This document shows, in pieces, positions 936-13,506 of a stretch of DNA of 64,000 nucleotides; the first letter of the stretch is position 1, and every line of letters begins with the position of its first letter. The stretch is from assembly GCA_963664675.2 (NCBI GenBank), contig CAXXLB010000002.1, positions 235,114 through 299,113 on the forward strand, given 5' to 3'. The notes under the pieces were generated by a model that searched no databases, was not told the DNA's origin, and worked only from the letters and a program-made list of their open reading frames with translations. This DNA comes from Petrotogaceae bacterium. GTDB lineage: Bacteria; Thermotogota; Thermotogae; Petrotogales; Kosmotogaceae. Position numbers and translations under genes: made by a program.

Positions 936-3900
936 ATGAAAAAATTTATTTTTTTTATCTTGTTTTTGGTTATTTCATTTATTGGTGTTGGAAATAACAT
1001 TTACGATTATGTTCCTGGTGGAACGGAGTTTGTTTTAAGTGTGGGTAATGTTGATCCTCTTTTGGAAGCGGTTGAAGGTCTTTCGACCTATATGGGAGAA
1101 AGTACAATGGATGAAAATTTGCAAAATGCTTTAAATACGGCGCAGGGAGCGGAGATATTGCTGTTTGGTAATACTTCTCTGGCTCTGTCTTCAGGCTTAT
1201 TAAATTCTGATTTTGATTTTAAAGATGAGGAAGCGATAATACCGTTTATTTTAACTCAAGATCTAGTTTTAATAAATAATGTTTTCAATTCAGAATTTAT
1301 TGATAATTTTGTTCAAAGTACTTTTAAACCATTTATTGAAAGTAAGGGAACATTTGAAAGAGAAGAAATAAACATGCAGGATTATCCAATTTTGATTTAT
1401 AGAATTACTATAAACGGAAAAACCGAAAACCTTTACCTTATGCAGGATAATGATTATGCGATTCTATCGACAGATGAACACCTTCTTAGAAAGTCAATGG
1501 ATGCAAAAGAGTTTGAAGACAAAAGATTGAAAACGAATTATCCTTTTTTCAAAAATATAATAGAAAAAGATGGATTGATAACTTTTATGAACAGAGGATT
1601 TCAAATTAATGGGATTTTTCTGAAAGCGGCCGATATCATATATGGTTTTCCTGTGGCGGAATCTTTTGTGATATCTGTTGATAAAGAGATGAACTTTTAT
1701 TTTGATTTTCTTGCCGATTTGGAATACGATACAGATGTTGATAGAATTTATACAATAAACAGTGCAAGAGATACAGATACGTATGGAAATCTACCCGTTC
1801 CGGAAGGATTCAATCTGTTAATTTCAACGGGTAAAATTAATTTTTCACCTGAAAATATTTCAGATGTGCTGGGTAATTTTGATCCGCTGGACGATGTTCT
1901 TGATGCTGTAGAAAGTATAGAATCATTGGATATACTTTCGGAAATAATTCCTGTTTTTTTAAAATTTGCTAATTATCCTGAAATATGGTTTGACACCACA
2001 GGAGAAAAAGATTTAGAGATTTTCTTTAAAACTGATAACGCCTCTGAAGCAATTGAATTATTATCGGAAGAATTGGGTTCGGAAATAGAATTGAATGATG
2101 GGTTATACTTCATGTCTGATGGAAACGCATATATTATGGGACGTGACTCCGGAAATTGGCTTGAGATAGGGGCACCCGTTCCGGATGAGAGACCGTTGTA
2201 TGAAAACTCTCCAAAATTATCGGAAGTTCATCCTGCGTTTTTTGAAAAGCTGGAGGAATCGTACGCTTCAATAAACTCTTTAATATTTGCAGAAGAATAT
2301 GGAGAAGGAGCGTTAGGCTTCAACGGTGAAGGTGATTTAAAAATAAATCTGCATTTGAATTTGAAAAAATTTATAGAAATGTATCTTACGTTAGCTAACG
2401 ATTTCAGCATTACAGATTACAGTAATTCAAATGCTTCTGGAAATGAAGAAATTCTGAATATGATAATCGATGGAGAATTAGAATCATTTAAAAATAAAGT
2501 GAATGAAGGCTTTAACCCAGAATCGATAATAGATGATTGGGACATGGAAACTGCGCTTCATATAGCTGTTATATATGATCAACTTGAAATAGTTAAATAT
2601 TTGCTTGAAGAACTTCATGTATATCCTGATCCTCTTGATTACTATAATCAAACCCCTTTATATCTGGCCGTTTTATATGAAAATTATAATTTTTCAGAAT
2701 TATTGCTCGAAAATGGAGCGGATCCAAACATCGAAAATGATTATGGAGAAACCCCTCTATATATAGCCATTTCTTATGGGTATGATGATATTGCAGGGTT
2801 ATTGAAGGAATATGGAGCTGAAGAAGTGGAAATTCCTGAAACAGAAAAAGTTTTTAATATGGTAATGAATGGGGAATTGGAATCTTTCAGGAATAAAATA
2901 AACGAAGGATTCGATCCCGAAACGGTGATTGATGACTGGAATATGGAAACCGCCCTTCATGTTGCCGCTGCATATGATCAGCTTGAAATAGTTACATATT
3001 TACTTGAAGAACTTGATGTCTATCCGGATGTATTGAATTATTATGGGCAAACGGCATTAATTTTAGCGGCTTCATACGGGGACTATGATCTTTGTGAACT
3101 CTTGCTGAAAAATGATGCCGATCCCAACATTAAAGATGCTTTCGGTGAAAGTGCCCTTTATAATGCTGCAATGTATGGTTATGATGAAGTGGCTGAATTG
3201 TTGAAGGAATACGGGGCAGAAGAAGTGGATATAAATGTGACAGAAGGCAGCGACGAGATTTATAACATAATAATTTCCGGTGATATTGAAGCTTTTAAAA
3301 CAAAAATTGATGAAGGATTTGATCCCGAAGCGATAGTTGATAGCTGGTTAGATGAAAATTCTCTTCATGTTGCAGCAGCCAATTCGCAATACGATATTGC
3401 TGAATATCTTCTTGAGGATTTATGGGTTAATCCTGATCCTCTGAATGTTGATGAACAAACACCTCTTTATTTGGCCGTTATGAACGGTGATTATAATATG
3501 GTGGAACTACTTCTAGATAATTGGGCAAATCCTAACAGTGTTGATTCCTATGGTGACTCGGTGTTGTATATTGCAAAAATCTATGAACTCAGTGATATCG
3601 CTGATCTTTTGATTGAATATGGGGCGAATGATGATATAGATACAAGTGATATTTCATCTGTTATAAGTTCCGGAGATTTTGAAAAATTCAAAGAGGCCGT
3701 GGTAGATAAAGATCCGGATTATATAGTTGATAGTTGGATAGGTGATACTTTATTGATTACAGTGGCTAGATACGGAACACTGGAAATGGCCGAATATCTT
3801 TTGGATATGGGTGCAAATATCGAAATAACAAATCAGGATTTAGAAACCCCTATACTTGCAGCTTCGTATAATGGCAATTATGAAATGGTTGAATTCTTAT

Positions 3901-4997
3901 TGGAAAACGGTGCAAATCCTGATGTTATTGATTCATATGGATATACGCCGCTTTCAAATGCTTATTATGCTGATCCTGATATGATCGAATTGCTTCTCAA
4001 AAATGGTGCAGATCCGGATATTGAAGACGAAAATTACGATAGATTTCTATTTGATGCTATATACAACGAAGACAAAGAACTGGTTGATTTATTATTATAT
4101 TATGGAGCCGACGCTAATAAAGCAAACTCATATGGAGAAACACCGATAATGCTTGCAGAATACTACGGGTATGATGATATTGAGAGAACTTTAATGAATT
4201 ATGGGGCAGAAAGCCAAGCCTATATAGTGGAGTCATTTGAATTAGGGGATCTTGGATTTGTGAAAAAACTCGTTGAAGAGGGAAAGATCGATGAGAAAAT
4301 TAATAATCGAACCCCCATTTATTTGGCAACTTACTACTATCAACCAGAACTGGTAGAGTATCTGGTTGAAAACGGTGCTGATTTGAATATCCTTTCAGGA
4401 GAAAACGACGACCCTCCTATTTTCAATGTTATAGACGCCGGAGATACTGAAATGCTTGGTTATTTAATTACGAACGGCGCAGAGGTGAATATTTACAACA
4501 TGAATGGAATAACTCCGCTTTTGCTTGCCGCATCTTATAGCGATAAGGATGTGTACGATTTATTAGTTGAGTATGGGGCCGATGAAGATGTTAGTGATTA
4601 TAGCGGTAATATACCACTTTCTTACGTTATATATTTTGGCGAAGAAGGATATTTGGATTTTGCAAAATATTTAATTGAAAAGGGAGCGGTTTCGGATATA
4701 AATAAACTTTCAGACTACGGAGAGGCACCACTTTATTGGGCTTTGAGTGCAGCGAATTACGAGGGAGCCGATTTATTGATTGAATATGGAGCAAATATAG
4801 ATCTGAAAAATATTTCTGGTAACACTCTATTACACGCCGCTGTAGAAAACAATGATTTGCAGTCTGTAAAGTACCTCGTTGAAAAAGGAGCTAATCTTGA
4901 TCCGGAAAATGAGTGGGGAGAAACTCCTTTACAATTATCTCAAGCGTATGAATTCACTGAAATTTCCGAATATTTGAAGGAAATGGGTGCAAAATAA
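936..4997 (+). CDS. exported ankyrin-repeat protein (about 500-aa N-terminal domain of unknown function plus about 24 ANK repeats)
   Basis: GGAGGG lies 6 nt upstream of the ATG. The N-terminus MKKFIFFILFLVISFIGVG is hydrophobic and signal-like. From about aa 505 there are repeated ANK signatures (TALH.A...LEIV.YLLE, G.TPLY.A...G..D....LL..GADPN). Confidence 0.85.
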   Translation: MKKFIFFILFLVISFIGVGNNIYDYVPGGTEFVLSVGNVDPLLEAVEGLSTYMGESTMDENLQNALNTAQGAEILLFGNTSLALSSGLLNSDFDFKDEEAIIPFILTQDLVLINNVFNSEFIDNFVQSTFKPFIESKGTFEREEINMQDYPILIYRITINGKTENLYLMQDNDYAILSTDEHLLRKSMDAKEFEDKRLKTNYPFFKNIIEKDGLITFMNRGFQINGIFLKAADIIYGFPVAESFVISVDKEMNFYFDFLADLEYDTDVDRIYTINSARDTDTYGNLPVPEGFNLLISTGKINFSPENISDVLGNFDPLDDVLDAVESIESLDILSEIIPVFLKFANYPEIWFDTTGEKDLEIFFKTDNASEAIELLSEELGSEIELNDGLYFMSDGNAYIMGRDSGNWLEIGAPVPDERPLYENSPKLSEVHPAFFEKLEESYASINSLIFAEEYGEGALGFNGEGDLKINLHLNLKKFIEMYLTLANDFSITDYSNSNASGNEEILNMIIDGELESFKNKVNEGFNPESIIDDWDMETALHIAVIYDQLEIVKYLLEELHVYPDPLDYYNQTPLYLAVLYENYNFSELLLENGADPNIENDYGETPLYIAISYGYDDIAGLLKEYGAEEVEIPETEKVFNMVMNGELESFRNKINEGFDPETVIDDWNMETALHVAAAYDQLEIVTYLLEELDVYPDVLNYYGQTALILAASYGDYDLCELLLKNDADPNIKDAFGESALYNAAMYGYDEVAELLKEYGAEEVDINVTEGSDEIYNIIISGDIEAFKTKIDEGFDPEAIVDSWLDENSLHVAAANSQYDIAEYLLEDLWVNPDPLNVDEQTPLYLAVMNGDYNMVELLLDNWANPNSVDSYGDSVLYIAKIYELSDIADLLIEYGANDDIDTSDISSVISSGDFEKFKEAVVDKDPDYIVDSWIGDTLLITVARYGTLEMAEYLLDMGANIEITNQDLETPILAASYNGNYEMVEFLLENGANPDVIDSYGYTPLSNAYYADPDMIELLLKNGADPDIEDENYDRFLFDAIYNEDKELVDLLLYYGADANKANSYGETPIMLAEYYGYDDIERTLMNYGAESQAYIVESFELGDLGFVKKLVEEGKIDEKINNRTPIYLATYYYQPELVEYLVENGADLNILSGENDDPPIFNVIDAGDTEMLGYLITNGAEVNIYNMNGITPLLLAASYSDKDVYDLLVEYGADEDVSDYSGNIPLSYVIYFGEEGYLDFAKYLIEKGAVSDINKLSDYGEAPLYWALSAANYEGADLLIEYGANIDLKNISGNTLLHAAVENNDLQSVKYLVEKGANLDPENEWGETPLQLSQAYEFTEISEYLKEMGAK
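2444..4994 (+). repeat. ankyrin-repeat region organised in roughly 133-aa (about 400-bp) super-repeats
   Basis: The unit (I/V).N(M/I)(I/V)..G(E/D)(L/I)E.F..K(I/V).EGF(D/N)PE..(I/V)D.W...(T/S)(A/L)LH recurs starting near 2444, 2839 and 3249, with a degenerate copy near 3652. Each unit is followed by 3-4 ANK repeats ending EYGAEE. Confidence 0.75.
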
Positions 4998-5228: not shown

Positions 5229-6152
5229 ATGGAATGTAGGGGTAACATTCGAAAAATATTTGAAGGACTTCCCTTTTCGGCTTTTGATGGAAAAAGTTAT
5301 TGCTATACGGATATAAGCTTGAATTTTGAAAATTATAAGCTTTTATTCGATATGAACATACCATTGAAACAATTTTCCTTTTTTAAAAAGTTACAGAATA
5401 GTTCTTTGAAATCATTTTTTAATGGGATTAAAAGAGTAACTGTTATGTCTTATAACTTTTATAAAGTGGGTTTGGTAAATGTTGTCATTGAAAACCAACA
5501 GAGTGACATTCAAATTTTTGATCTGAATGATTTTGTATTGATCTGCAAATTTTTCTTTTACATAATAATTGCTTTGGAATACGATTTAGATTTTAGTCAG
5601 GAATCGGAGATAATAACAGAGCTTGTAAATATTTGGGAATCAAGAAATTTTTTCGAATTTTCCCATAGTAGAAGAGTTGCATTTTATTCTAAAACTTTTG
5701 CTGAAAAACTAAAAATGTCAAAAAGAGAAGTAAATGAGATTTATTGGGCGGCATTGGCACACGATTTAGGTAAAATCTTAGTGCCGGTAAAAATCTTGAA
5801 TAAGCCCGGACCTCTTTCCGATTCTGAATACAGGATTATAAAAAAACACAGTGAGAATGCGGATGTAATATTTTTTTATTTTAATACTTTCTCTAAATTT
5901 ATGCCAATAATAAAGCACCATCATGAGAAGTGGGATGGAACAGGTTATCCCGATCATTTGCTTGAAAATAATATTCCATTTTATTCGAGAATAATAAGTC
6001 TGGCAGATTCATACGACGCTATGACAAACTTTAGAGTGTACAAATTTGCAAAAACCACGCTTGAAGCTCTTAAAGAAATACATGAGGGTAGTGGAACCCA
6101 TTTCGATCCGGATTTATCGAGAGAATTTCTAAAATATGAAAAATTTTTGTAG
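5229..6152 (+). CDS. HD-GYP domain protein (putative c-di-GMP phosphodiesterase) with an uncharacterised N-terminal domain
   Basis: Motifs HDLGKILVP and HHHEKWDGTGYPDH, plus ADSYDAMT. It is a paralog of 10186-11106 over its whole length. Confidence 0.85.
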   Translation: MECRGNIRKIFEGLPFSAFDGKSYCYTDISLNFENYKLLFDMNIPLKQFSFFKKLQNSSLKSFFNGIKRVTVMSYNFYKVGLVNVVIENQQSDIQIFDLNDFVLICKFFFYIIIALEYDLDFSQESEIITELVNIWESRNFFEFSHSRRVAFYSKTFAEKLKMSKREVNEIYWAALAHDLGKILVPVKILNKPGPLSDSEYRIIKKHSENADVIFFYFNTFSKFMPIIKHHHEKWDGTGYPDHLLENNIPFYSRIISLADSYDAMTNFRVYKFAKTTLEALKEIHEGSGTHFDPDLSREFLKYEKFL

Positions 6153-6161
6153 GTGTAAAAA

Positions 6162-6842
6162 ATGTGTAGAATAGTGGCTTTTAAAAGTGATATAAAAATG
6201 AATACAGAACCGTTTTTGAATTATTTAACTTTTATTTCAAAATATGGTTATAATTATCCTCACAGAGATGGATATGGATATGTTGTTTTTGATGAATTGA
6301 ATTCATGGACTTTCAGATCTATGAATTGTATTTATGAGGAAGAAAAAACAGACAGCAAGATGGCTAATGCAGGAATATTTCATTCAAGAAAGGCATCGAC
6401 TTCGAATGGTTATAAACCGAGATTCAATCATGTTCATCCCTTCACAGGAATTGCAAATGGTATAAATTATGCTTTTATCCACAATGGAACAATAAATGAT
6501 TTTTCTAACTGCCCAGGTGAAATCGATACTCAAAAATATTTCAGGATATTGTTATCGAATTTAATTAATCAGAGCCCCGAGGAAGCTTTGAGGAGTACTT
6601 CAGATTTTATTTCGGAAAGATATAAGTATACATCTTTAATTTCTGTTCTTACGGACTACAAAAACATATGGTGTATCAAAAAGGTATACGATGAACATGA
6701 TTATAAACACGATCTTTTTTTGATAGAATTCAACAATTTTAGGATGATAGCCAGTGAAAAAGTCGAAGAAAAATTTTGCTATTTTGATATTAACCCATTA
6801 GGGTGCAGAAGAATACCAAATGGTAAAGTTATAAAATTATGA
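6162..6842 (+). CDS. class II (Ntn-type) glutamine amidotransferase-like protein
   Basis: Starts MCRIVAF (Cys2 nucleophile position). Contains HSRKAS......HPF and FIHNGTI blocks typical of YafJ-like GATase-2 domains. It begins 9 nt after the HD-GYP gene. Confidence 0.65.
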   Translation: MCRIVAFKSDIKMNTEPFLNYLTFISKYGYNYPHRDGYGYVVFDELNSWTFRSMNCIYEEEKTDSKMANAGIFHSRKASTSNGYKPRFNHVHPFTGIANGINYAFIHNGTINDFSNCPGEIDTQKYFRILLSNLINQSPEEALRSTSDFISERYKYTSLISVLTDYKNIWCIKKVYDEHDYKHDLFLIEFNNFRMIASEKVEEKFCYFDINPLGCRRIPNGKVIKL

Positions 6843-8522
6843 ATTACAGTATACTATTTTGCTTTTTTCTACAAGAGTAATTTCTTCCAAAAAATTGAAA
6901 ACACGTTTTCTTTCGGTTTTGCTTTTAAAACAAAACAATGAAATAATACCAGGTTGAATTTTCAAGCCTAAGATTTTGAAGATTTCTTTGTAATCTTCAT
7001 TGTCAATTTTTATTCCCCATTTTCTGGAATATCTGACATAGTTTCTGATGAAATTATCTATGGATTCCCTGATATCTTCTTCGAGAAAAAAATATCTGTT
7101 AATAAACTTTTCTTTGTATTTCTTGTTTAAATCGGCGAAAAAATTGTCTATCAGGGAAAATCTGGCTTTTTCAAATGTGTTCAGGTTACTTATTAAATAA
7201 AGAAATTTGATCCATTCACTTCTATTTTCCAGATAATCAATATTTTTAGTTCCAGAGATGATAATTTTTACAAAGAAATCAATGGATCCTTTCCTACATA
7301 GTTTTTTTATGAAGTGTTTTCTTTTGTATAAACAACTGTAAGTTTTAAAGATTAGAAATAATCTGTCTGTTTTTGGTAATGAGTTCAGATATTTCAGGTT
7401 CATTTTTGCACTGAACAGCTCTCTGGACTTAAATGATTCTCGTGCTACCGCAAAGGGTAAATGAAGAATATCCTTTTCAATATTAATGTTACTCAATAAC
7501 CCATTTAAAGTAGCGGAATTAATTGTTTTCTTTTTTCCGTTTATTATTTCAGAGATAGTTTTTCTTTGAATACCCGTTTTTCTACTGAATTCAGATATAT
7601 TATCAATTTTGCTTAAAAGGAATTTCTGAAGTTTTTTAGTATTTTTATAAGTATTGCTCTCACTACATGTTATTTGATCTAATTCGATGGATTTATTTAT
7701 AACATTTTTTGTCATTTCTTTTTCCTGTTTGGATATTTCTTTAGAAAAGGAGATGATTAAACGGGATATCTTGATCAATTCATCGCAATTATTGATAAGA
7801 AGAACACTGAAGTATGTATGAATTATATAGAAATGTCTTTGGCTATCAAAAAATCTCCCAAATATTGTAACGGCTTTTTCAATTATTATGCGGGAAAGAA
7901 GAGGATGACTCTGATAAATATACCATGCAATTGCATTCAGGGATAAAAGCATACCCGAAACGTGGAAACATTTATTTGAAACTTTATAAGCGGTTATAAA
8001 ATCTTGGATTCCACTTCTGCTATTTCCTTTTTTCATTTTTTCTCTTCCAAGATTGATCTTTACAAAAGCCAGAGCGCTGTCCTTAACACTTTTTAATTTA
8101 AGCTTACCGAGACAATTTTCATAAGAATCGTTGAGAGAACAATATCCCAAAGTTGTTACGACAACCGAATCATATCTTATATTTGGAGGAACATTGTGTA
8201 GATTTTTTCTTAAATAGTTGTATAGCCTGTCTCCATTTTTAAAATCTTTCATTTTCAAATACATATTTAATTTTCTGGAATTAATTAAAAACTCTAATGA
8301 TTTCGATTTTTCGAAATGTTCTGCTGTCTCAATGTACTTGAAGCTTTTCTCATAATTACGCGTGTGTTCCACGTTTAAAGCCTTTATGAAAAATTTCCAT
8401 GATTTTTCCTCGTCCGAAGAACAATTCTTTAACTCAACTTCAAGTAAATATATTATAAACGGATTCGAAAAAGAACCGTTATCAAAAAGTAATTTTGCGA
8501 AATTGAAAAGTCTGTTATTCAA
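6837..8522 (-). CDS. putative transcriptional regulator with a helical-repeat N-half and a central XRE-type HTH
   Basis: 561-aa ORF. An HTH-like segment, ISEFSRKTGIQRKTISEIINGKKKTINSATLNGLL, lies near aa 308-345. The rest has no motif I recognise. It is divergent from the repeat-protein gene. Confidence 0.45.
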   Translation of the reverse strand: MNNRLFNFAKLLFDNGSFSNPFIIYLLEVELKNCSSDEEKSWKFFIKALNVEHTRNYEKSFKYIETAEHFEKSKSLEFLINSRKLNMYLKMKDFKNGDRLYNYLRKNLHNVPPNIRYDSVVVTTLGYCSLNDSYENCLGKLKLKSVKDSALAFVKINLGREKMKKGNSRSGIQDFITAYKVSNKCFHVSGMLLSLNAIAWYIYQSHPLLSRIIIEKAVTIFGRFFDSQRHFYIIHTYFSVLLINNCDELIKISRLIISFSKEISKQEKEMTKNVINKSIELDQITCSESNTYKNTKKLQKFLLSKIDNISEFSRKTGIQRKTISEIINGKKKTINSATLNGLLSNINIEKDILHLPFAVARESFKSRELFSAKMNLKYLNSLPKTDRLFLIFKTYSCLYKRKHFIKKLCRKGSIDFFVKIIISGTKNIDYLENRSEWIKFLYLISNLNTFEKARFSLIDNFFADLNKKYKEKFINRYFFLEEDIRESIDNFIRNYVRYSRKWGIKIDNEDYKEIFKILGLKIQPGIISLFCFKSKTERKRVFNFLEEITLVEKSKIVYCNS

Positions 8523-8701
8523 AAAACACCTCTATAAGCTAATTACAGATTATGCCTGAGTAATTATACTACAATTTTACAAAAAAAATCAAACGTATAA
8601 ATTTGCTGCTTTTGCATCGCCCATGAACAAAGAGTTATGAAAGGCTATAAAATTGACAATCAAAATAAGAGTTGTATCCTTAGAATAAGGGAGGTGTCGA
8701 T

Positions 8702-9871
8702 GTGAGAAGGTTTTTCTTAAAATCGACGAAAATATTTTTATTTTTGTTTGTATTTTTGTCTTTTCAATTTTTGTTTTTTTCTGATGCTGTTAGTTTAGAT
8801 TTGTTTTCGAGTAATTATGATTATCTTAATAGGGTTTATGATCCACCTGACATAGATAACCTTGAGTCCGGAAGAGGATTGCTTGCCTACGATCCACCTG
8901 ATATAGATAACCTTGAGTCCGGAAGAGGATTGCTTGCCTACGATCCACCTGATATAGATAACCTTGAGTCCGGAAGAGGATTGCTCGCCTACGATCCACC
9001 TGACATAGATAACCTTGAGTCCGGAAGAGGATTGCTCGCCTACGATCCGCCTGATATAGATAACCTTGAGTCCGGAAGAGGATTGCTTGCCTATGATCCT
9101 GATGATATAGACAATATCGGGGCGAAAATGTTCTCGGAAAGATTTGAGGGAGCACTTGCCTATGATCCTGATGATATAGACAATATCGGTGCGAAAATGT
9201 TCTCGGAAAGATTTGAAGGAGCGCTTGCCTATGATCCTGATGATATAGACAATATCGGAGCGAAAATGTTCTCGGAAAGATTTGAGGGAGCGCTTGCCTA
9301 TGATCCTGATGATATAGACAATATCGGGGCGAAAATGTTCTCGGAAAGATTTGAAGGAGCGCTTGCCTATGATCCTGATGATATAGATAATATCGGGGCG
9401 AAAATGTTCTCGGAAAGATTTGAGGGAGCGCTTGCCTATGATCCTGATGATATAGACAATATCGGGGCGAAAATGTTCTCGGAAAGATTTGAAGGAGCGC
9501 TTGCCTATGATCCTGATGATATAGACAATATCGGAGCGAAAATGTTCTCGGAAAGATTTGAGGGAGCGCTTGCCTATGATCCTGATGATATAGACAATAT
9601 CGGGGCGAAAATGTTCTCGGAAAGATTTGAAGGAGCGCTTGCCTATGATCCTGATGATATAGATAATATCGGGGCGAAAATGTTCTCGGAAAGATTTGAG
9701 GGAGCGCTTGCCTATGATCCTGATGATATAGACAATATCGGGGCGAAAATGTTCTCGGAAAGATTTGAAGGAGCACTTGCCTATGATCCTGATGATATAG
9801 ATAATCTTGAATCTGTGAGAGATCTTGCTTGTTTGAAATTTGAAGGGAGAGAATATTTATGGAGAATATAG
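8702..9871 (+). CDS. exported tandem-repeat protein (5 x 17 aa plus 10 x 23 aa)
   Basis: GGGAGGTG lies upstream of a GTG start. The N-terminus KIFLFLFVFLSFQFLFF is signal-peptide-like. About 90 percent of the mature protein is perfect repeats. All nucleotide differences between units are synonymous. Confidence 0.75.
   Translation: MRRFFLKSTKIFLFLFVFLSFQFLFFSDAVSLDLFSSNYDYLNRVYDPPDIDNLESGRGLLAYDPPDIDNLESGRGLLAYDPPDIDNLESGRGLLAYDPPDIDNLESGRGLLAYDPPDIDNLESGRGLLAYDPDDIDNIGAKMFSERFEGALAYDPDDIDNIGAKMFSERFEGALAYDPDDIDNIGAKMFSERFEGALAYDPDDIDNIGAKMFSERFEGALAYDPDDIDNIGAKMFSERFEGALAYDPDDIDNIGAKMFSERFEGALAYDPDDIDNIGAKMFSERFEGALAYDPDDIDNIGAKMFSERFEGALAYDPDDIDNIGAKMFSERFEGALAYDPDDIDNIGAKMFSERFEGALAYDPDDIDNLESVRDLACLKFEGREYLWRI
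8837..9091 (+). repeat. tandem repeat A: 5 x 51 bp encoding YDPPDIDNLESGRGLLA
   Basis: Five head-to-tail in-frame copies. They differ only at synonymous sites (tat/tac, gac/gat, cca/ccg, ctt/ctc). Confidence 0.95.
9092..9781 (+). repeat. tandem repeat B: 10 x 69 bp encoding YDPDDIDNIGAKMFSERFEGALA
   Basis: Ten in-frame copies with identical amino-acid sequence. gag and gaa alternate strictly. Units 3-6 are repeated in units 7-10 (a 276-bp higher-order repeat), apart from one synonymous gcg/gca difference in unit 10. Confidence 0.95.
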
Positions 9872-9963
9872 ATTTAAAAAATACGGAAGAATCGATTGTA
9901 AAAGAAACAAAGAAAATAATGGAAAATGTATACAGTTCAGAAGAGTTAATTTTAGAGTGGTAG
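9859..9963 (+). CDS. small acidic peptide, 34 aa (MENIDLKNTEESIVKETKKIMENVYSSEELILEW)
   Basis: Not on the ORF track. AAGGGAGAG lies 7 nt upstream of the ATG. It overlaps the repeat-gene 3' end by 13 nt. It has a paralog 17 nt downstream, and many differences between the two are synonymous. Confidence 0.55.
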   Translation: MENIDLKNTEESIVKETKKIMENVYSSEELILEW

Positions 9964-9979
9964 AAGGGGGAAATAATTA

Positions 9980-10084
9980 ATGGAAAATATAGATTTAAAA
10001 AATACTGAGGAACAGATCATCAATGAAACAAAAAATGTTATGGAAAATATTTATAATTCAGAAGAATTAATCATTGAATGGTGA
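9980..10084 (+). CDS. small acidic peptide, 34 aa (MENIDLKNTEEQIINETKNVMENIYNSEELIIEW)
   Basis: Not on the ORF track. GAAGGGGG lies upstream of the ATG. It has the same length as 9859-9963, the same N-terminal 11 aa and the same C-terminal EEL(I)(L/I)EW. Confidence 0.55.
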   Translation: MENIDLKNTEEQIINETKNVMENIYNSEELIIEW

Positions 10085-10185
10085 TTGTTAATTATTTAAG
10101 TTGATTCAGAAATCAAAAAATTATAAGAAATGTGAAAATAGAAAAAAACGGAATAGGGTGAAGTATTACTTAGAAGGAGTTTGAT

Positions 10186-11106
10186 ATGAATAAAGTGCTG
10201 AAAACGTATGAGATTTTTGAAAATTTACCATTTCAAAGTTTTTACAAAGATTCTGTATTATTAAATGACCAGACACAGATAGGGGAATTAGATCTTATTT
10301 TTAGAATTAATATACCTCTCAGGAAATTTGATTTTATAGATGATTTTTATACCTGTAATTTAAGTTGTTATGGTTTGAACAATTCGAGTCAGGTTGTAAT
10401 ACGTTTTGAATGTGATAATATGTCTGCAGTGGACATAAAAATTCTTAAACTGAAAAGAGATCTTGAATTGTATGATCTTAATGATTTCATCCTTCTCAGC
10501 AAATTCTTTTTCTATTCTGTATTGGTATCTAATCAACAATTTACATTCGAAGAAGAATGTCATTTGGTATCGGAACTGGTTAATATCTGGGAATCCAGAA
10601 ATGTTTTTGAATATGCACATAGCAGCAGAGTAGCCTTTTATTCAAAAAGATTTGCGGGAACAATAGGTATGTCTCCAAGTGATCAGAATGAAATATATTG
10701 GGCTGCCTTTGCTCATGATTTGGGGAAGATTTTTGTCCCCAAAAAAATTCTGAACAAATCGGGAGAATTATCTCAAGAAGAGAGAGAACAGTTAAAGAAT
10801 CATACTTATTTGATAGATTGTATATTTGACGCTTTTGATAATTTTAATGCTTTACTTCCTTCCATAAAGCATCACCACGAAAGGTGGGATGGATACGGAT
10901 ATCCTGATCACCTTTCAAGAGAAGAGATACCATTGTATTCAAGAATAATAAATATTGCTGATTCATATGATGCAATGATAAATTTTAGAGTTTATAAAAA
11001 CGCTTTATCTTCCTCTCTGGCCACAAAAGAAATAGAAAAAGGAGCTGGATATCAGTTTGATCCGGATCTTGCAAAAGAATTTATTAAATTTCAAAGAAGG
11101 TTATAA
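10186..11106 (+). CDS. HD-GYP domain protein, paralog of 5229-6152
   Basis: Motifs HDLGKIFVP, HHHERWDGYGYPDH and ADSYDAMI. It shares N-terminal blocks with the first copy (IFENLPF, DLNDFILLSKFFFY, ELVNIWESRNVFE). Confidence 0.85.
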   Translation: MNKVLKTYEIFENLPFQSFYKDSVLLNDQTQIGELDLIFRINIPLRKFDFIDDFYTCNLSCYGLNNSSQVVIRFECDNMSAVDIKILKLKRDLELYDLNDFILLSKFFFYSVLVSNQQFTFEEECHLVSELVNIWESRNVFEYAHSSRVAFYSKRFAGTIGMSPSDQNEIYWAAFAHDLGKIFVPKKILNKSGELSQEEREQLKNHTYLIDCIFDAFDNFNALLPSIKHHHERWDGYGYPDHLSREEIPLYSRIINIADSYDAMINFRVYKNALSSSLATKEIEKGAGYQFDPDLAKEFIKFQRRL

Positions 11107-12003
11107 ATTATTTTTTTCTAAAAAATTGTAGATAGTTTTTTCATATTCTTTTCTGTTTGTTGCAAAAGATTCGACGTGCCTTGCATCATCAACCAGATAT
11201 AATACTTTTTTCCCAATATTTTTTGCGTTGTATAATTCTATACTCATAGAAGTGGGTACAAAATCATCTTTCTTTCCGTGTATTAAAAGAGTAGGAATGG
11301 TGCTATTTTTAATATCTTTTATAGGTGAAACTTCTCCAAAAAAAAATTTAAATTTTATTTTTGAAATTAAACTGGTAATTGGTATTATAAGAAAATAAGG
11401 AAGTTTGTAGTCTTTCTTTAATCTATATCCTAATTGTTTTTTTAAATCTGAATAAGGACAATCGGCTATAATGAAAGATGCTCTATTATCTATGGCAGAA
11501 TATTGAATGACCGTTCCTCCACCAAGGGATTCACCCATAGCACCTATTTTTGCATTTTCGCCCAATTTTTCAAAAAGCCAATTAATGCACGTTTTCAAAT
11601 CATATTTTTCAAAAAAGCCAAAACTTGTAAACTTTCCACCACTAAATCCATGATACCTGTTGTCGAACAGAAGAACATTGTATTCTTTTTTTCTGAACAT
11701 ATCAAGATATTTTATAGTTCCTGCATGGGTCCATGTGTAGCCGTGAACAAGAACGATTGCTTTTTTTGATCCTGGTTTTTCAAAGAATTTGCCATATAGC
11801 TTATAACCAAATTCAGAAGATATATTGACCTCTTCATATTTAAGATTGTCGATATATTCCCGTGTATAATCCCCGTTTTCAACGCCAAAATTAATTGTAT
11901 AGTCATAATCCTTTGTTTTTGGCTTATTTGCCAAATTTGAAAATATTATGCCAATAGAAATAAATGCTCCCAGAAAAATGATTGATACAATAAAAAAAAT
12001 CAT
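11101..12003 (-). CDS. membrane-anchored alpha/beta hydrolase
   Basis: N-terminal TM segment, HGYT oxyanion region, nucleophile elbow GESLGG, and C-terminal D...H (DDARH). Confidence 0.8.
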   Translation of the reverse strand: MIFFIVSIIFLGAFISIGIIFSNLANKPKTKDYDYTINFGVENGDYTREYIDNLKYEEVNISSEFGYKLYGKFFEKPGSKKAIVLVHGYTWTHAGTIKYLDMFRKKEYNVLLFDNRYHGFSGGKFTSFGFFEKYDLKTCINWLFEKLGENAKIGAMGESLGGGTVIQYSAIDNRASFIIADCPYSDLKKQLGYRLKKDYKLPYFLIIPITSLISKIKFKFFFGEVSPIKDIKNSTIPTLLIHGKKDDFVPTSMSIELYNAKNIGKKVLYLVDDARHVESFATNRKEYEKTIYNFLEKNNL

Positions 12004-12018
12004 TTATTATTTAACACC

Positions 12019-13506
12019 TCAGGAAATGTTATAAATTTCGTAATATTTTATATTTAAGTAATTCATAAATGATTCGGAAGATAAAGTGTGGCCTGTAACC
12101 TTTTTAATGAGTTCTTCCGTATCATATAAAGCCCCATGTTTATAAACATTATTTTTGAGCCAGTCTATTACTTCTTCAAAGTTTCCGGTACTTACAGTTT
12201 CGAAAGCATTTTTCTTTTCCGATAACAATTTTTGAAAAAATTGTGAAGAGATCAGGTTCCCAAGCATATACGATGGAAAATATCCAAATTTTCCACCTGC
12301 CCAATGAATATCTTGTAAAATACCTTCCGAATAATTTTCGGGAACGATATTTAAGTATTTATTCATTTTTTCGTTCCATATTTTGGGCAAATCATCCAAA
12401 TTTATATTATTTTTCAAAAGGGCACTTTCGAGTTCGAATCTTATAAATATATGTAAATTATAGGTGACTTCATCAGCCTCGATTCTTATTGGTTGTTTTT
12501 TAACGGCGTTGATGGCTTTATAAAAGTCCATTAATTTTATCTGTTGCATATTTTCAAAATAAAATTTTATTTTGTCAAATAGATATTTGATGAAGGGAAA
12601 GCTTTTTCCTATGAGATTTTCCAAGAGTCTTGATTGAGATTCATGAACAGAAAAAGATGCGCCCTGGGAAATCGGAGTCCATTTATAACTTTTATCGATA
12701 TTCATTTCATATAAAGCATGTCCGCATTCGTGAATCGTTCCATAAAGAGATGAAGTAAAGTTATTGGGATTGAATTTTGTTGTTATTCTCACATCATCTC
12801 TTGTTATTGAAATTGTAAAAGGGTGTTCTGATTCATCATATCTGCCGTTATTAAAATCGAACAGAAATTTTTTTAAAATATGTTTGCAGAGTTTTTTCTG
12901 AGTCTCGATTGAATAATTATTATACAGAAAAGAATCATCAACTTGCCTGGAAGCAAAAATTCTTTTTGTTAAATCGATGAGATCATCTTTAAAGGTAGAA
13001 ATAAGATTTTCTATTTTGCTTTCTGTTATTCCATAATCATAAATATCCAGAAAATAATCATATGGATTTTCAACGTATCCATTCGCGGCAGCAATTTCTT
13101 TAGATAGTTCAATGTTGTCCTTTAAATAGGGTTTAAAAATTTCGTAATTTTCTTCTTTTTTTGCCTTTAACCAATAAAACTGAGCTCTGGAAATTGCTTT
13201 TGTATATTTTAAGTAAAGTTCAGGAGGAATATTTTTGAGTTTTTTGTAATTTCTGAAAATCAAGCTATAAATTCTTTTATTCACTTGATTCAATTCATCC
13301 GGATTGATTTTATCCATTATTTCTTCTGTTTCATTAGAAGTGCTTTTTCTCTGATATTCAGAAGAAAGATATCCTATGACTTCCGACCTGTCACTTCCCG
13401 AATCCGGAGGAAGATAAGTTCTTTGATCCCATTGAAGAAGTGATAGAGCGGAATTCAAATAAGAAATTTCATTAAATTTTTTCAACAGCTTTTCGATATT
13501 TTCCAT
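12019..13506 (-). CDS. carboxypeptidase Taq family metallopeptidase (M32)
   Basis: 495 aa. Contains HPF, the HEXXH site HECGHALYE, and DIHWAGGKFGYFPSY, all hallmarks of M32. Confidence 0.9.
   Translation of the reverse strand: MENIEKLLKKFNEISYLNSALSLLQWDQRTYLPPDSGSDRSEVIGYLSSEYQRKSTSNETEEIMDKINPDELNQVNKRIYSLIFRNYKKLKNIPPELYLKYTKAISRAQFYWLKAKKEENYEIFKPYLKDNIELSKEIAAANGYVENPYDYFLDIYDYGITESKIENLISTFKDDLIDLTKRIFASRQVDDSFLYNNYSIETQKKLCKHILKKFLFDFNNGRYDESEHPFTISITRDDVRITTKFNPNNFTSSLYGTIHECGHALYEMNIDKSYKWTPISQGASFSVHESQSRLLENLIGKSFPFIKYLFDKIKFYFENMQQIKLMDFYKAINAVKKQPIRIEADEVTYNLHIFIRFELESALLKNNINLDDLPKIWNEKMNKYLNIVPENYSEGILQDIHWAGGKFGYFPSYMLGNLISSQFFQKLLSEKKNAFETVSTGNFEEVIDWLKNNVYKHGALYDTEELIKKVTGHTLSSESFMNYLNIKYYEIYNIS

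What the first reader, a model, noticed from the sequence alone, without database searches (positions are those of the whole stretch)
5229..11106. Two HD-GYP paralogs bracket a cassette of an Ntn-amidotransferase-like enzyme, an atypical HTH regulator, an exported 15-unit repeat protein and twin 34-aa ORFs
Seen in the sequence:
- The two ~306-aa proteins (5229-6152 and 10186-11106) share the HD-GYP half (HDLGKI, HHHE(K/R)WDG.GYPDH).
- They also share an uncharacterised ~130-aa N-terminal half (IFE.LPF, DLNDF.L..KFFFY, ELVNIWESRN.FE).
- Between them lies an MC-initiated class II amidotransferase-like ORF, 9 nt after the first HD-GYP gene.
- Next is a convergent 561-aa ORF with an XRE-like HTH in the middle of a helical protein.
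- Divergent from that ORF is a signal-peptide protein that is almost entirely perfect peptide repeats, followed by two SD-preceded 34-aa paralogous ORFs.

Inference: a regulator, an exported repetitive pro-protein, small peptides and c-di-GMP phosphodiesterases together look like a peptide-signal to second-messenger module. The architecture does not match the RNPP/Rgg, Phr or RiPP systems I know. This is the most plausible candidate for an undescribed system in the left half of the window.
Basis: partly seen in the sequence, partly recalled or inferred. Interest (0 to 1): 0.7.

Follow-up and report, generated by a model that had tools for sequence, protein, structure and literature searches.

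The report
Conserved peptide-signal HD-GYP regulatory cassette
This stretch holds a gene cassette (a TPR/HTH regulator, a secreted pro-peptide expanded here to 16 tandem copies, and cyclic-dinucleotide phosphodiesterases) that recurs in three deep-branching, mostly thermophilic bacterial phyla; it looks like an undescribed peptide cell-to-cell signalling system wired to second-messenger breakdown.

Summary
Its key test, neighbourhood conservation, comes out positive. The 561-aa regulator belongs to a distinct, unnamed family with about 108 representative clusters. Its layout is a TPR-like N-domain, a central XRE HTH and a helical C-domain.

I examined 14 distinct lineages. In 11 of them a small Sec-signal-peptide gene is transcribed divergently from the regulator. 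In 8 of the 14 an HD-GYP gene follows that peptide gene, with one small acidic ORF or an SBP_bac_3 gene between them in some lineages. The 8 lineages span Thermotogota, Dictyoglomota and Caldisericota, and the flanking genes differ in every case. In nine lineages, counting one disrupted copy, the mature peptide starts with Asp-Pro.

The window lineage has expanded this peptide to 5 x 17 aa plus 10 x 23 aa plus one degenerate unit. All 8 variable DNA columns among the units are synonymous. The twin 34-aa ORFs are under purifying selection (pN/pS about 0.14) and have counterparts in two relatives. The second HD-GYP and the Ntn-hydrolase-like gene are found only in this lineage.

Best reading: a quorum-sensing cassette with RRNPP-like logic whose output is cyclic-dinucleotide hydrolysis. 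All functional steps are inferred. I found no description of it in the searched literature.

The parts
5229..6152 (+). HD-GYP-A: phosphodiesterase paralog with an unassigned ~130-aa N-domain and an HD-GYP domain. It is a lineage-specific extra copy.
   Evidence: Pfam HD_5 E=2.8e-36 over residues 133-296. HD, HHHExWDGxGYP and ADSYDAM motifs are intact. It is conserved next to the regulator in L002 and L003.
6162..6842 (+). Cys1 (MC...) Ntn-type class-II amidotransferase-like protein, 226 aa, probably in an operon with HD-GYP-A. It is an accessory gene found only in close relatives.
   Evidence: Pfam GATase_4, 27.3 bits (cut-off 23), residues 1-140. PDB 1te5, E=5e-4. Present in L002, L003 and L004 only.
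6837..8522 (-). Regulator, 561 aa: TPR-like helical N-domain (~20-290), XRE HTH (~300-350) and a helical C-domain carrying the FIRNYxRYxRKWG motif. It is the founding member in this window of an unnamed family.
   Evidence: HTH_26 E=5.6e-5. 108 representative clusters at E<=1e-3, mostly 520-580 aa. The family profile hits consensus TPR proteins at E=1.7e-8 and HipB-type HTH. TPR_12 is found in 5 of 42 members. The AF2 model is all-helical but low confidence.
8523..8701 (.). Divergent promoter/operator region between the regulator and the pro-peptide gene. Conserved blocks lie at 8555-8578 and 8653-8701. The second block holds TTGACA-16-TATCCT and a GGAGG Shine-Dalgarno sequence.
   Evidence: Mean column identity is 91% across window, L003 and L004, and the two blocks are nearly invariant, although the L004 proteins are only 77% identical. 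Promoter-like hexamers.
8702..9871 (+). Exported poly-pro-peptide, 389 aa. It comprises a signal peptide (8702-8788), a spacer, 5 x YDPPDIDNLESGRGLLA (8837-9091), 10 x YDPDDIDNIGAKMFSERFEGALA (9092-9781) and a degenerate last unit (9782-9871).
   Evidence: 8 of 8 variable columns synonymous. Orthologous repeat genes occur in L003 and L004. Two- to three-unit versions occur in L001 and L015, and single-unit DP peptides in the Marinitoga, Dictyoglomota, Caldisericia, L013 and L014 cassettes.
9859..9963 (+). Small acidic ORF 1 (34 aa, MENIDLKNTEESIVKETKKIMENVYSSEELILEW). It has no signal peptide and its start overlaps the end of the repeat gene.
   Evidence: Shine-Dalgarno sequence present and purifying selection relative to its paralog. 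Positional counterparts in L001 (36 aa) and L015 (39 aa) share an ES(I/E)(V/I)V.E motif and an aromatic C-terminus.
9980..10084 (+). Small acidic ORF 2 (34 aa, MENIDLKNTEEQIINETKNVMENIYNSEELIIEW), a paralog of ORF 1.
   Evidence: 121-nt tandem duplication at 80% identity. Differences by codon position are 5/3/16 and pN/pS is about 0.14.
10186..11106 (+). HD-GYP-B: phosphodiesterase in the conserved cassette position, downstream of the peptide gene(s) on the same strand. This is the presumed output enzyme.
   Evidence: HD_5 E=1.3e-32. Best PDB relatives are V-cGAP3 (5z7c), PmGH (4mcw) and PA4781 (4r8z), over residues >=128 only. An HD-GYP gene occupies the same position in L001, L005, L008, L009, L011, L012, L014, L015, L022 and L023.

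Best explanation
The region is a peptide-based cell-cell signalling cassette of a previously unnamed family.

Proposed mechanism:
1. A cytoplasmic regulator (TPR-like domain, XRE HTH, C-terminal helical domain) sits divergently from an operon. That operon encodes a Sec-exported pro-peptide and an HD-GYP cyclic-dinucleotide phosphodiesterase.
2. The pro-peptide is secreted and cut by signal peptidase. In single-copy relatives this leaves a 20-27-aa peptide beginning Asp-Pro.
3. In this lineage the peptide module has been amplified into a polyprotein. Extracellular proteolysis would release five copies of a 17-mer and ten copies of a 23-mer.
4. At high cell density the peptide is re-imported and bound by the regulator's TPR-like domain. 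This changes transcription from the shared promoter region, giving autoinduction plus HD-GYP expression.
5. HD-GYP lowers c-di-GMP, or a related cyclic dinucleotide, and switches lifestyle, for example between biofilm/exopolysaccharide and planktonic growth.

Shown: gene content and order; conservation across three phyla; signal peptides and the DP motif; selection on the peptide units and the small ORFs; TPR-like and HTH signatures; intact HD-GYP catalytic motifs.

Inferred: that the peptide is a signal; that the regulator is its receptor; re-import; the transcriptional effect; the HD-GYP substrate.

The two small acidic proteins, HD-GYP-A and the Ntn-hydrolase-like enzyme are lineage-specific additions of unknown role.
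For: - **Regulator family.** It is real and distinct: 108 representative clusters, 35 of them at E<=1e-30. The family profile matches consensus TPR proteins (E=1.7e-8, summed over repeats; no single stretch passes alone) and XRE HTH proteins. TPR_12 is detected in 5 of 42 members.
- **Divergent exported peptide.** A signal-peptide small ORF lies divergent from the regulator in the window lineage including its 97%-identical relative L003, L004, L001, L015, L014 and L016, Marinitoga L008/L023, Dictyoglomota L005 and L009-L012, L013, L018 and Caldisericia L022. Kosmotoga olearia L021 has a disrupted copy.
- **Shared peptide motif.** The predicted mature N-termini are DPPDID, DPDDID, DPPDGE, DPPDVD, DPDVYS, DPAPGE, DPSSNS, DPSDTG, DPGEDC and DPDDVV.
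- **HD-GYP linkage.** An HD-GYP gene lies downstream of the peptide gene in 8 lineages. Twelve of the 13 HD-GYP ORFs in all fetched loci are in cassette positions. The flanking genes are unrelated in every case.
- **Regulator-peptide pair without HD-GYP.** The pair persists in L013, L016 and L018 without an HD-GYP. Other members sit next to an OppA-like SBP_bac_5 (L017) or radical-SAM peptide loci (L016, L019). The regulator-peptide pair is therefore the constant element.
- **Selection on the peptides.** The repeat units are identical at protein level while 8 of 8 DNA differences are synonymous. The small ORFs have pN/pS of about 0.14.
- **Promoter region.** The intergenic promoter region is almost invariant in a relative whose proteins are 77% identical.
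Against: - There is no experimental or expression evidence at all.
- TPR assignment is weak for the window protein itself. Only sub-threshold hits appear, and the AF2 model has pLDDT 52.6.
- No RRNPP receptor structure was hit at E<=1.
- No peptide importer is linked in the window.
- Several cassette HD-GYPs carry extracytoplasmic or other sensor domains (SBP_bac_3-TM-GAF, TM-coil, REC-PAS). These could themselves sense the peptide or something unrelated.
- HD-GYP genes are abundant in these phyla (bioRxiv 10.1101/2021.11.05.467447).
- The HD-GYP catalytic domains show no co-phylogeny with the regulators beyond one close pair (Spearman 0.07).
- Some family members have no adjacent peptide or HD-GYP (L017, L020).
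Confidence: 0.55

Rival explanations
1. The peptide is a signal, but it is sensed outside the cell or at the membrane by the HD-GYP protein or its partner. Candidates are the SBP_bac_3 periplasmic domain in Kosmotoga and Dictyoglomota and the transmembrane N-terminus in Marinitoga. Enzyme activity would then be modulated directly. The HTH protein would only set expression of the operon and would not be the peptide receptor.
For: - SBP_bac_3 is fused to TM-GAF-HD-GYP in the Dictyoglomota cassettes. It is encoded immediately upstream of GAF-HD-GYP in Kosmotoga.
- The Marinitoga cassette HD-GYPs have an N-terminal membrane segment.
- This route needs no importer.
Against: - The window HD-GYPs, the L015 and the Caldisericia HD-GYPs have no Pfam-detected sensor or membrane-associated domain and no hydrophobic N-terminal segment in their translations. 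The L014 protein is a REC-PAS response-regulator type.
- The sensor domain varies while the regulator is constant.
- The regulator-peptide pair occurs without HD-GYP in L013, L016 and L018.
Confidence: 0.15
2. The exported product is not a signal but an effector or structural product. It could be an antimicrobial or bacteriocin-like peptide, or a surface or matrix repeat protein. Its production would be controlled by the HTH regulator and coordinated with c-di-GMP turnover.
For: - Some family members regulate loci that look like RiPP or bacteriocin clusters, with radical SAM plus ABC exporter genes (L016, L019).
- K. olearia has Cys-rich exported proteins downstream.
- Perfect tandem repeats are also typical of surface proteins.
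- c-di-GMP commonly controls matrix components (general knowledge).
Against: - The single-copy homologues are only 20-27 aa after signal-peptide removal, acidic and non-amphipathic. No immunity or dedicated exporter gene accompanies them in the HD-GYP cassettes.
- A repeat array with strictly synonymous variation and a conserved unit start points to release of discrete identical peptides rather than a scaffold.
Confidence: 0.2
3. The genes are adjacent without functional coupling. On this view HD-GYP genes are simply numerous in these phyla, and small signal-peptide ORFs are spurious calls in AT-rich DNA.
For: - HD-GYP domains are over-represented in Thermotogae and Dictyoglomi (bioRxiv 10.1101/2021.11.05.467447).
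- Several of the small ORFs were not called by the source annotations (L014, L016).
- There is no co-phylogeny signal.
Against: - The same order and orientation recurs in 8 lineages of 3 phyla with completely different flanks.
- Twelve of 13 HD-GYP ORFs in the fetched loci are in the cassette.
- The window has only two HD-GYPs in 64 kb, and both are in the cassette.
- The peptides share a signal peptide plus DP motif.
- The repeat units and small ORFs show coding selection.
Confidence: 0.03

Closest known systems
RRNPPA quorum-sensing systems of Bacillota (Rap, Rgg, NprR, PlcR, PrgX, AimR)
   Same: - A cytoplasmic receptor-regulator built from TPR-type repeats plus an HTH.
- It is encoded next to a small Sec-exported pro-peptide gene.
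- Pro-peptides with several pheromone copies are known (PMC9765709, PMC11343458).
- The divergent regulator/peptide arrangement is as in Rgg/SHP (own knowledge).
   Different: - No detectable sequence homology: no RRNPPA structure was hit at E<=1.
- The HTH is central, with the TPR-like part N-terminal to it, plus an extra ~200-aa C-domain. RRNPPA regulators have an N-terminal HTH followed by 5-9 TPRs (PMC9765709).
- The proteins are 520-580 aa, against the 250-500 aa used by RRNPP_detector (PMC10075063).
- The hosts are Thermotogota, Dictyoglomota and Caldisericota, not Bacillota.
- The peptides are 17-27 aa and start with DP.
- There are 16 tandem units.
- The co-transcribed output is an HD-GYP enzyme.
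DSF/Rpf quorum sensing in Xanthomonas (RpfC-RpfG)
   Same: A diffusible cell-density signal is coupled to an HD-GYP phosphodiesterase that degrades c-di-GMP. REC-HD-GYP is the RpfG architecture (bioRxiv 10.1101/2021.11.05.467447), and one cassette (L014) has REC-PAS-HD-GYP.
   Different: - The signal there is a fatty acid made by RpfF and sensed by a histidine kinase.
- Here the linked gene is a ribosomal exported peptide with a TPR/HTH regulator.
- No kinase or RpfF-like gene is present in the cassette.
Eukaryotic and fungal polyprotein peptide precursors (yeast alpha-factor MFalpha1, neuropeptide precursors)
   Same: A signal peptide is followed by many tandem, identical copies of a short peptide, with selection acting on each unit (own knowledge for the comparators; for this gene).
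   Different: - No dibasic Kex2-type spacer is present; the units abut directly (..LLA-YDPPD..).
- It sits in a bacterial chromosome, and the processing enzymes are unknown.
- Sixteen units exceeds the bacterial tandemly duplicated pheromone pro-peptides reported in PMC11343458 and PMC9765709, as far as I read those papers.
Thermotoga maritima TM0504 peptide signalling
   Same: It is the only reported peptide-based density signalling in a member of Thermotogota (Johnson et al. 2005, cited in PMC6022435). From memory, that study also implicated c-di-GMP/GGDEF genes and exopolysaccharide.
   Different: TM0504 is an unrelated small ORF. From memory, it lies opposite the tmRNA gene. No dedicated regulator or HD-GYP neighbour has been described for it. 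I did not test for sequence relationship.

Membership tests
HD-GYP phosphodiesterases (Pfam HD_5) | HD-superfamily domain with H..HD..H..HHE..DG.GYP and downstream D motifs | tested here: met
   HD_5 E=2.8e-36 and 1.3e-32, both above the cut-off. All motif residues are present in both paralogs. PDB relatives are 5z7c, 4mcw and 4r8z.
HD-GYP phosphodiesterases (Pfam HD_5) | Hydrolysis of c-di-GMP (or 3'3'-cGAMP) | not testable with these tools
   The best PDB hit is a cGAMP-specific enzyme (5z7c) and the next hits are c-di-GMP enzymes. Substrate cannot be inferred from sequence here.
RRNPPA peptide receptors | Five to nine TPR or TPR-like repeats forming the peptide pocket | tested here: inconclusive
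   The family profile hits consensus TPR proteins (E=1.7e-8, no single stretch significant). TPR_12 is found in 5 of 42 members. The window protein gives only sub-threshold TPR hits, and the AF2 model is too poor to count repeats.
RRNPPA peptide receptors | N-terminal HTH (or 3-helix bundle) followed by a C-terminal TPR domain; sequence or profile similarity to Rap/Rgg/NprR/PlcR/PrgX/AimR | tested here: not met
   The HTH is at residues ~300-350 of 561, after the TPR-like region. No RRNPPA structure appears among the PDB hits at E<=1.
RRNPPA peptide receptors | Adjacent gene for a small secreted pro-peptide | tested here: met
   A divergent signal-peptide ORF is present in 11 lineages.
RRNPPA peptide receptors | Peptide re-import by oligopeptide permease and binding to the receptor | not testable with these tools
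   There is no Opp locus in the cassette. One family member (L017) is divergent from an SBP_bac_5 gene.
Class-II (Ntn) glutamine amidotransferase-like, Pfam GATase_4 | N-terminal catalytic Cys after Met removal and the Ntn fold | tested here: met
   The protein starts MC... It scores 27.3 bits on GATase_4 (cut-off 23), covering profile positions 1-147 of 272 only. PDB 1te5, E=5e-4. The fold was not modelled.
XRE/Cro-C1 HTH regulators | Cro/C1-type helix-turn-helix | tested here: met
   HTH_26 at 23.8 bits (cut-off 22) in the window protein and in 22 of 42 family members. AF2 pLDDT is 85-92 over residues 290-340.
GAF domain (as the N-domain of the window HD-GYPs) | Profile similarity to GAF | tested here: not met
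   There is no Pfam hit. hhalign against the GAF regions of the other cassette HD-GYPs gives probability 0.13%, and against the L015 N-terminus 0.19%.

The most novel reading that the evidence does not exclude
This would be a phylum-spanning family of peptide quorum-sensing systems outside Bacillota. Its parts are a TPR-HTH receptor-regulator, a Sec-exported Asp-Pro-initiated pheromone and a co-transcribed HD-GYP enzyme, so that cell density is converted directly into cyclic-dinucleotide degradation. It occurs in Thermotogota, Dictyoglomota and Caldisericota. The window lineage would encode a 16-unit pheromone polyprotein precursor releasing two peptide species in a 5:10 ratio, plus a second class of leaderless acidic peptides.
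Probability: 0.45. Interest if true: 0.88.

Novelty: new variant of a known kind. Interest (0 to 1): 0.77.

Why it matters
- **Gap in knowledge.** Peptide quorum sensing with cytoplasmic TPR/HTH receptors is treated as a Bacillota trait (PMC9765709, PMC10075063). A survey of thermophiles found only one reported peptide system in Thermotoga and none in Dictyoglomi (PMC6022435).
- **What this adds.** A conserved regulator/pro-peptide/HD-GYP cassette in three deep-branching, largely thermophilic phyla would extend this signalling logic to very different cell envelopes. It would also give a direct genetic link between density sensing and c-di-GMP turnover. That makes the old question of how Thermotogota coordinate biofilm and exopolysaccharide formation testable.
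- **Testability.** Cultured strains carry the cassette, including Marinitoga hydrogenitolerans DSM 16785, M. lauensis LG1 and, with a disrupted peptide gene, Kosmotoga olearia TBF 19.5.1. The peptides are short enough to synthesise.
- **The 16-unit precursor.** Its strictly synonymous variation is a clean natural example of dosage or ratio encoding in a bacterial signal gene.

Tried and rejected
- **Wider homolog search for the regulator.** The word-index search with a 5-sequence alignment returned only the self hit.
- **HD-GYP N-domain search.** The word-index search returned nothing, not even self. Both searches were uninformative, probably because of AT-rich low-complexity words.
- **AlphaFold2 models.** The regulator model has pLDDT 52.6 and the HD-GYP-B model 48.6. 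Each used a 2-sequence alignment. Both are too poor for fold searches, so none were run.
- **GAF hypothesis for the HD-GYP N-domain.** MAFFT placed its C-terminal part against GAF C-termini, but hhalign gave no support. The GAF assignment is rejected for now.
- **Operator search.** No shared inverted repeat was found in the divergent intergenic regions of four cassettes.
- **Co-phylogeny of regulator and HD-GYP domains.** The Mantel r of 0.83 is driven by one near-identical pair, and Spearman is 0.07. There is no support either way.
- **Known peptide families.** Scans of the small peptides gave only sub-threshold signal-peptide similarities. The Pfam LRR_5 and NCBIfam RpoZ sub-threshold hits on the repeat protein are artefacts of repetition.
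- **Non-coding RNA.** Rfam found nothing in the region, only three tRNAs elsewhere.
- **Prepilin-type processing.** This was considered because a Peptidase_A24 gene neighbours the Kosmotoga cassette. It was rejected because the peptides have classical n-h-c signal peptides, not G|F prepilin leaders.
- **The 316-aa ORF at 8826-9776 (-).** It lies opposite the repeats and is a shadow of the repeat array.

Full report
**1. The observation**

- **HD-GYP paralogs.** HD-GYP-A (5229-6152) and HD-GYP-B (10186-11106) both match Pfam HD_5 strongly (E=2.8e-36 and 1.3e-32). They are 48% identical end to end. This includes a roughly 130-aa N-terminal half that is 31% identical and has no family assignment.
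- **Amidotransferase-like ORF.** The MC-initiated ORF (6162-6842) begins 9 nt after HD-GYP-A. It passes the GATase_4 threshold over its first 140 residues only. Its single PDB relative is 1te5, E=5e-4.
- **Regulator.** The convergent 561-aa ORF (6837-8522, minus strand) has a Cro/C1 HTH at residues 305-350.
- **Repeat gene.** The divergent gene at 8702-9871 encodes a 29-residue signal-peptide-like N-terminus. It is followed by 5 identical 17-mers (YDPPDIDNLESGRGLLA), 10 identical 23-mers (YDPDDIDNIGAKMFSERFEGALA) and one degenerate unit.
- **Small ORFs.** Two 34-aa ORFs preceded by Shine-Dalgarno sequences follow at 9859-9963 and 9980-10084.

Two selection tests show these are real coding features.

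- All eight DNA columns that vary among the repeat units are synonymous third positions. Only 21% of possible changes in the units are synonymous, so the chance is about 4e-6.
- The two small ORFs differ at 5, 3 and 16 sites by codon position, with pN/pS of about 0.14.

The window is ordinary chromosome, carrying PolC, RuvC, tRNAs and sugar metabolism genes. It contains no other HD-GYP gene and no other regulator of this family.

**2. The regulator defines a family**

The first word-index search found only the self cluster and one Kosmotoga protein at 39% identity. An exhaustive HMMER scan of 1.84 billion representative proteins with that two-sequence profile found more. It returned 108 clusters at E<=1e-3 and 35 at E<=1e-30, nearly all 520-580 aa and aligned end to end.

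Source names are 'hypothetical', 'XRE-family' or 'tetratricopeptide repeat protein'. The organisms include:

- Kosmotoga olearia (Kole_1058)
- Kosmotoga sp. DU53
- Marinitoga hydrogenitolerans
- M. lauensis
- Petrotoga and Petrotogaceae
- Dictyoglomota
- a Caldisericia MAG

A 42-sequence profile (A7) hits designed consensus TPR proteins with its N-terminal part. The best is E=1.7e-8, summed over repeats. It hits HipB-type HTH proteins with positions 304-354. TPR_12 is detected in 5 of the 42 members. No RRNPPA receptor structure is hit.

The AlphaFold2 model of the window protein is all-helical with a confident HTH, but it is otherwise unreliable (pLDDT 52.6).

The resulting architecture is a TPR-like domain, then an XRE HTH, then a conserved helical C-domain carrying the FIRNYxRYxRKWG motif.

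**3. Neighbourhood conservation**

I collected 23 loci and read their small ORFs directly.

| Locus / lineage | Divergent exported peptide | Genes that follow |
|---|---|---|
| L003 (97% id) and L004 (77% id), close relatives | Same YDPPDIDNLE(S/A)G(G)RGLLA repeat gene; these assemblies break or carry Ns inside the array | GATase-like gene present; L003 also has HD-GYP-A |
| L001, Kosmotoga sp. (39% id) | 74-aa exported protein with two DYDPPDGEVVDGV units | 36-aa acidic ORF, SBP_bac_3, GAF-HD-GYP |
| L015 | 88-aa exported protein with ..NDPPDVDNLESV.. twice | 39-aa acidic ORF ending ..FQYW, HD-GYP |
| L008 / L023, Marinitoga | ..TFG then DPDVYSDSTEITQNAVVFTLNAYDINQ, or GPLDG.. | TM-HD-GYP |
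| L005, L009-L012, Dictyoglomota | ..VFA then DPAPGENQTY(T/S)SKPPVEVVVNLSNK | SBP_bac_3-TM-GAF-HD-GYP (not seen in L010, whose contig ends after the peptide gene) |
| L014 | ..ALG then DPSSNSKQVQSVPPVSPVVCVME | REC-PAS-HD-GYP |
| L022, Caldisericia | ..VFA then DPSDTGGSPLKQSTPIELVQE | HD-GYP |
| L013 | ..VFA then DPGEDCLNNTESVNPVVEVY | ankyrin gene, no HD-GYP |
| L018 | ..AGG then DDAVNQSDSVLPPINVTGSVFY | ABC/MFS genes, with GGDEF genes nearby |
| L016 | Exported peptide | radical SAM, ABC exporter |
| L019 | 37-aa Cys peptide with no signal peptide (not an exported peptide) | two radical-SAM genes |
| L017 | No small ORF seen | OppA-like SBP_bac_5 |
| L021, K. olearia | Signal-peptide ORF interrupted by a stop just before ..LADPDDVV.. 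| no HD-GYP |
| L020 | Nothing clear | nothing clear |

The constant pair is therefore the regulator plus a divergent Sec-type small peptide whose mature end usually starts Asp-Pro. An HD-GYP gene follows in 8 lineages of 3 phyla.

A local HMM scan shows that 12 of the 13 HD-GYP ORFs in all fetched DNA lie in cassette positions. The genes flanking the cassettes are different in every lineage.

The intergenic promoter region is nearly invariant between the window and the 77%-identity relative. The conserved blocks are 8555-8578 and 8653-8701, the second holding TTGACA-16-TATCCT and GGAGG.

**4. Lineage-specific parts**

- The second HD-GYP (A) and the amidotransferase-like gene occur only in the window's near relatives.
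- The acidic small ORFs occur only in the window, L001 and L015. They share an ES(I/E)(V/I)V.E motif and an aromatic C-terminus, have no signal peptide and match no family.
- The N-domain of the window HD-GYPs is an orphan. There is no hit in the word-index search and no significant hhalign match to the GAF regions or the L015 N-terminus. The model is unusable.
- The sensor module on cassette HD-GYPs varies among orphan, GAF, SBP_bac_3-TM-GAF, TM-coil and REC-PAS. It is therefore not the conserved recognition element.

**5. Mechanism**

The best-supported reading, at confidence about 0.55, is a quorum-sensing cassette with RRNPP-like logic.

1. The pro-peptide is secreted and processed.
2. The peptide accumulates and is re-imported.
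3. It binds the TPR-like domain of the regulator.
4. The regulator controls the divergent promoter, and with it both peptide production and HD-GYP expression.
5. Cyclic-dinucleotide levels fall.

In this lineage the peptide module was amplified into a polyprotein. One codon alternates GAG/GAA between units, which shows that the 23-mer array grew by 138-nt double units. If the array is cut between Tyr and Asp, the units read DP...AY. That matches single-copy peptides that start DP, and two of them (L013, L018) end in Tyr. The true cleavage sites are unknown.

Pro at position 2 would protect the peptide against general aminopeptidases. Asp-Pro bonds are also chemically heat-labile. Both points are established peptide chemistry, and their relevance here is speculation.

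Shown versus inferred:
- Shown: anatomy, conservation, selection and domain signatures.
- Inferred: signalling, receptor identity, import, transcriptional effect and substrate.

Rivals:
- Extracellular sensing by the HD-GYP-associated SBP_bac_3 or TM modules (0.15).
- A non-signalling exported effector or structural product (0.20).
- Chance adjacency (0.03).

Two caveats weigh against over-reading the HD-GYP link.
- HD-GYP genes are abundant in Thermotogae and Dictyoglomi (bioRxiv 10.1101/2021.11.05.467447).
- The catalytic domains show no co-phylogeny with the regulators beyond one near-identical pair. I cannot tell whether the enzyme was inherited with the cassette or recruited repeatedly.

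**6. Comparison with known systems**

- **RRNPPA receptors** have an N-terminal HTH or 3-helix bundle followed by 5-9 TPRs and are found almost only in Bacilli (PMC9765709). RRNPP_detector looks for 250-500-aa TPR receptors in Firmicutes (PMC10075063). The present family shares the logic but fails the architecture and homology tests. I therefore describe it as working like RRNPP without filing it as a member.
- **Tandemly duplicated pheromone pro-peptides** are known in Rap-Phr systems (PMC11343458). Sixteen units of two kinds is a much larger expansion.
- **Coupling of a density signal to an HD-GYP enzyme** is known from DSF/RpfG. That system uses a fatty-acid signal and a two-component relay.
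- **Thermophile survey.** A survey of quorum sensing in thermophiles lists only the T. maritima peptide report and nothing for Dictyoglomi (PMC6022435).
- **Literature searches** found no description of this cassette. The library is limited to open-access papers and preprints, so absence is not proof.

**7. Verdict**

The conserved module is real and apparently undescribed.
- Novelty: a new variant of a known kind, namely peptide quorum sensing through a cytoplasmic TPR/HTH regulator. It has new phyla, a new receptor architecture, a polyprotein precursor and an HD-GYP output.
- Interest: 0.77.

Noticed in passing
window 936-4997 (+); L013 4775-5284 (-): A 1353-aa ankyrin-repeat protein with a signal-peptide-like N-terminus lies directly upstream of HD-GYP-A. 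In the distant cassette L013, an ankyrin-repeat gene lies downstream of the DP-peptide gene on the same strand, where other cassettes have the HD-GYP. This may be a recurrent association with ankyrin proteins.
   Followed up: partly
window 11101-12003 (-) and 12019-13506 (-): A membrane-anchored alpha/beta hydrolase (S33/S9/S15-like hits) and an M32 carboxypeptidase lie immediately downstream of HD-GYP-B. They could be peptide-processing candidates or unrelated neighbours. Their conservation could not be checked because relatives' contigs end at the repeat array.
   Followed up: no
window 8826-9776 (-): A 316-aa ORF on the strand opposite the repeat array is itself perfectly repetitive. It is a shadow ORF created by the repeats, not a gene.
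   Followed up: yes
window 9092-9781: One Glu codon alternates GAG/GAA in successive 23-aa units (pattern GAGAGAGAGA). The array therefore expanded by duplication of 138-nt double units.
   Followed up: partly
L002 (2-172), L003 (1-226), L004 (45-401): All other assemblies of this lineage break off or contain runs of N inside the repeat gene. Copy number cannot be compared, and the gene is probably under-represented in short-read MAGs.
   Followed up: partly
L016 3170-4855; L019 3525-4688 and 6653-8038: Some members of the same regulator family sit next to radical-SAM enzymes, small Cys-containing or exported peptides and an ABC exporter. These are RiPP-like loci and have no HD-GYP. The family may control several kinds of peptide loci.
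   Followed up: partly
L021 (Kosmotoga olearia CP001634, locus coordinates 4563-4847): In the cultured type strain the exported-peptide ORF is interrupted by a stop codon between the signal peptide (..FSILLAD*) and ..LADPDDVV... No HD-GYP follows, and IS21-type genes are nearby. The cassette looks decayed there.
   Followed up: no
L008 (Marinitoga lauensis) 9956-11513: The regulator gene is split into four ORFs by frameshifts in this PacBio unitig assembly. Its ortholog in M. hydrogenitolerans (L023) is intact. This is either a pseudogene or homopolymer sequencing errors.
   Followed up: no
L018 1-181 and 7200-8765: In a 3.98-Mb genome of unknown phylum the regulator/peptide pair has no HD-GYP. 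It is flanked within 5 kb by two GGDEF (diguanylate cyclase) genes. This is another possible link to c-di-GMP.
   Followed up: no
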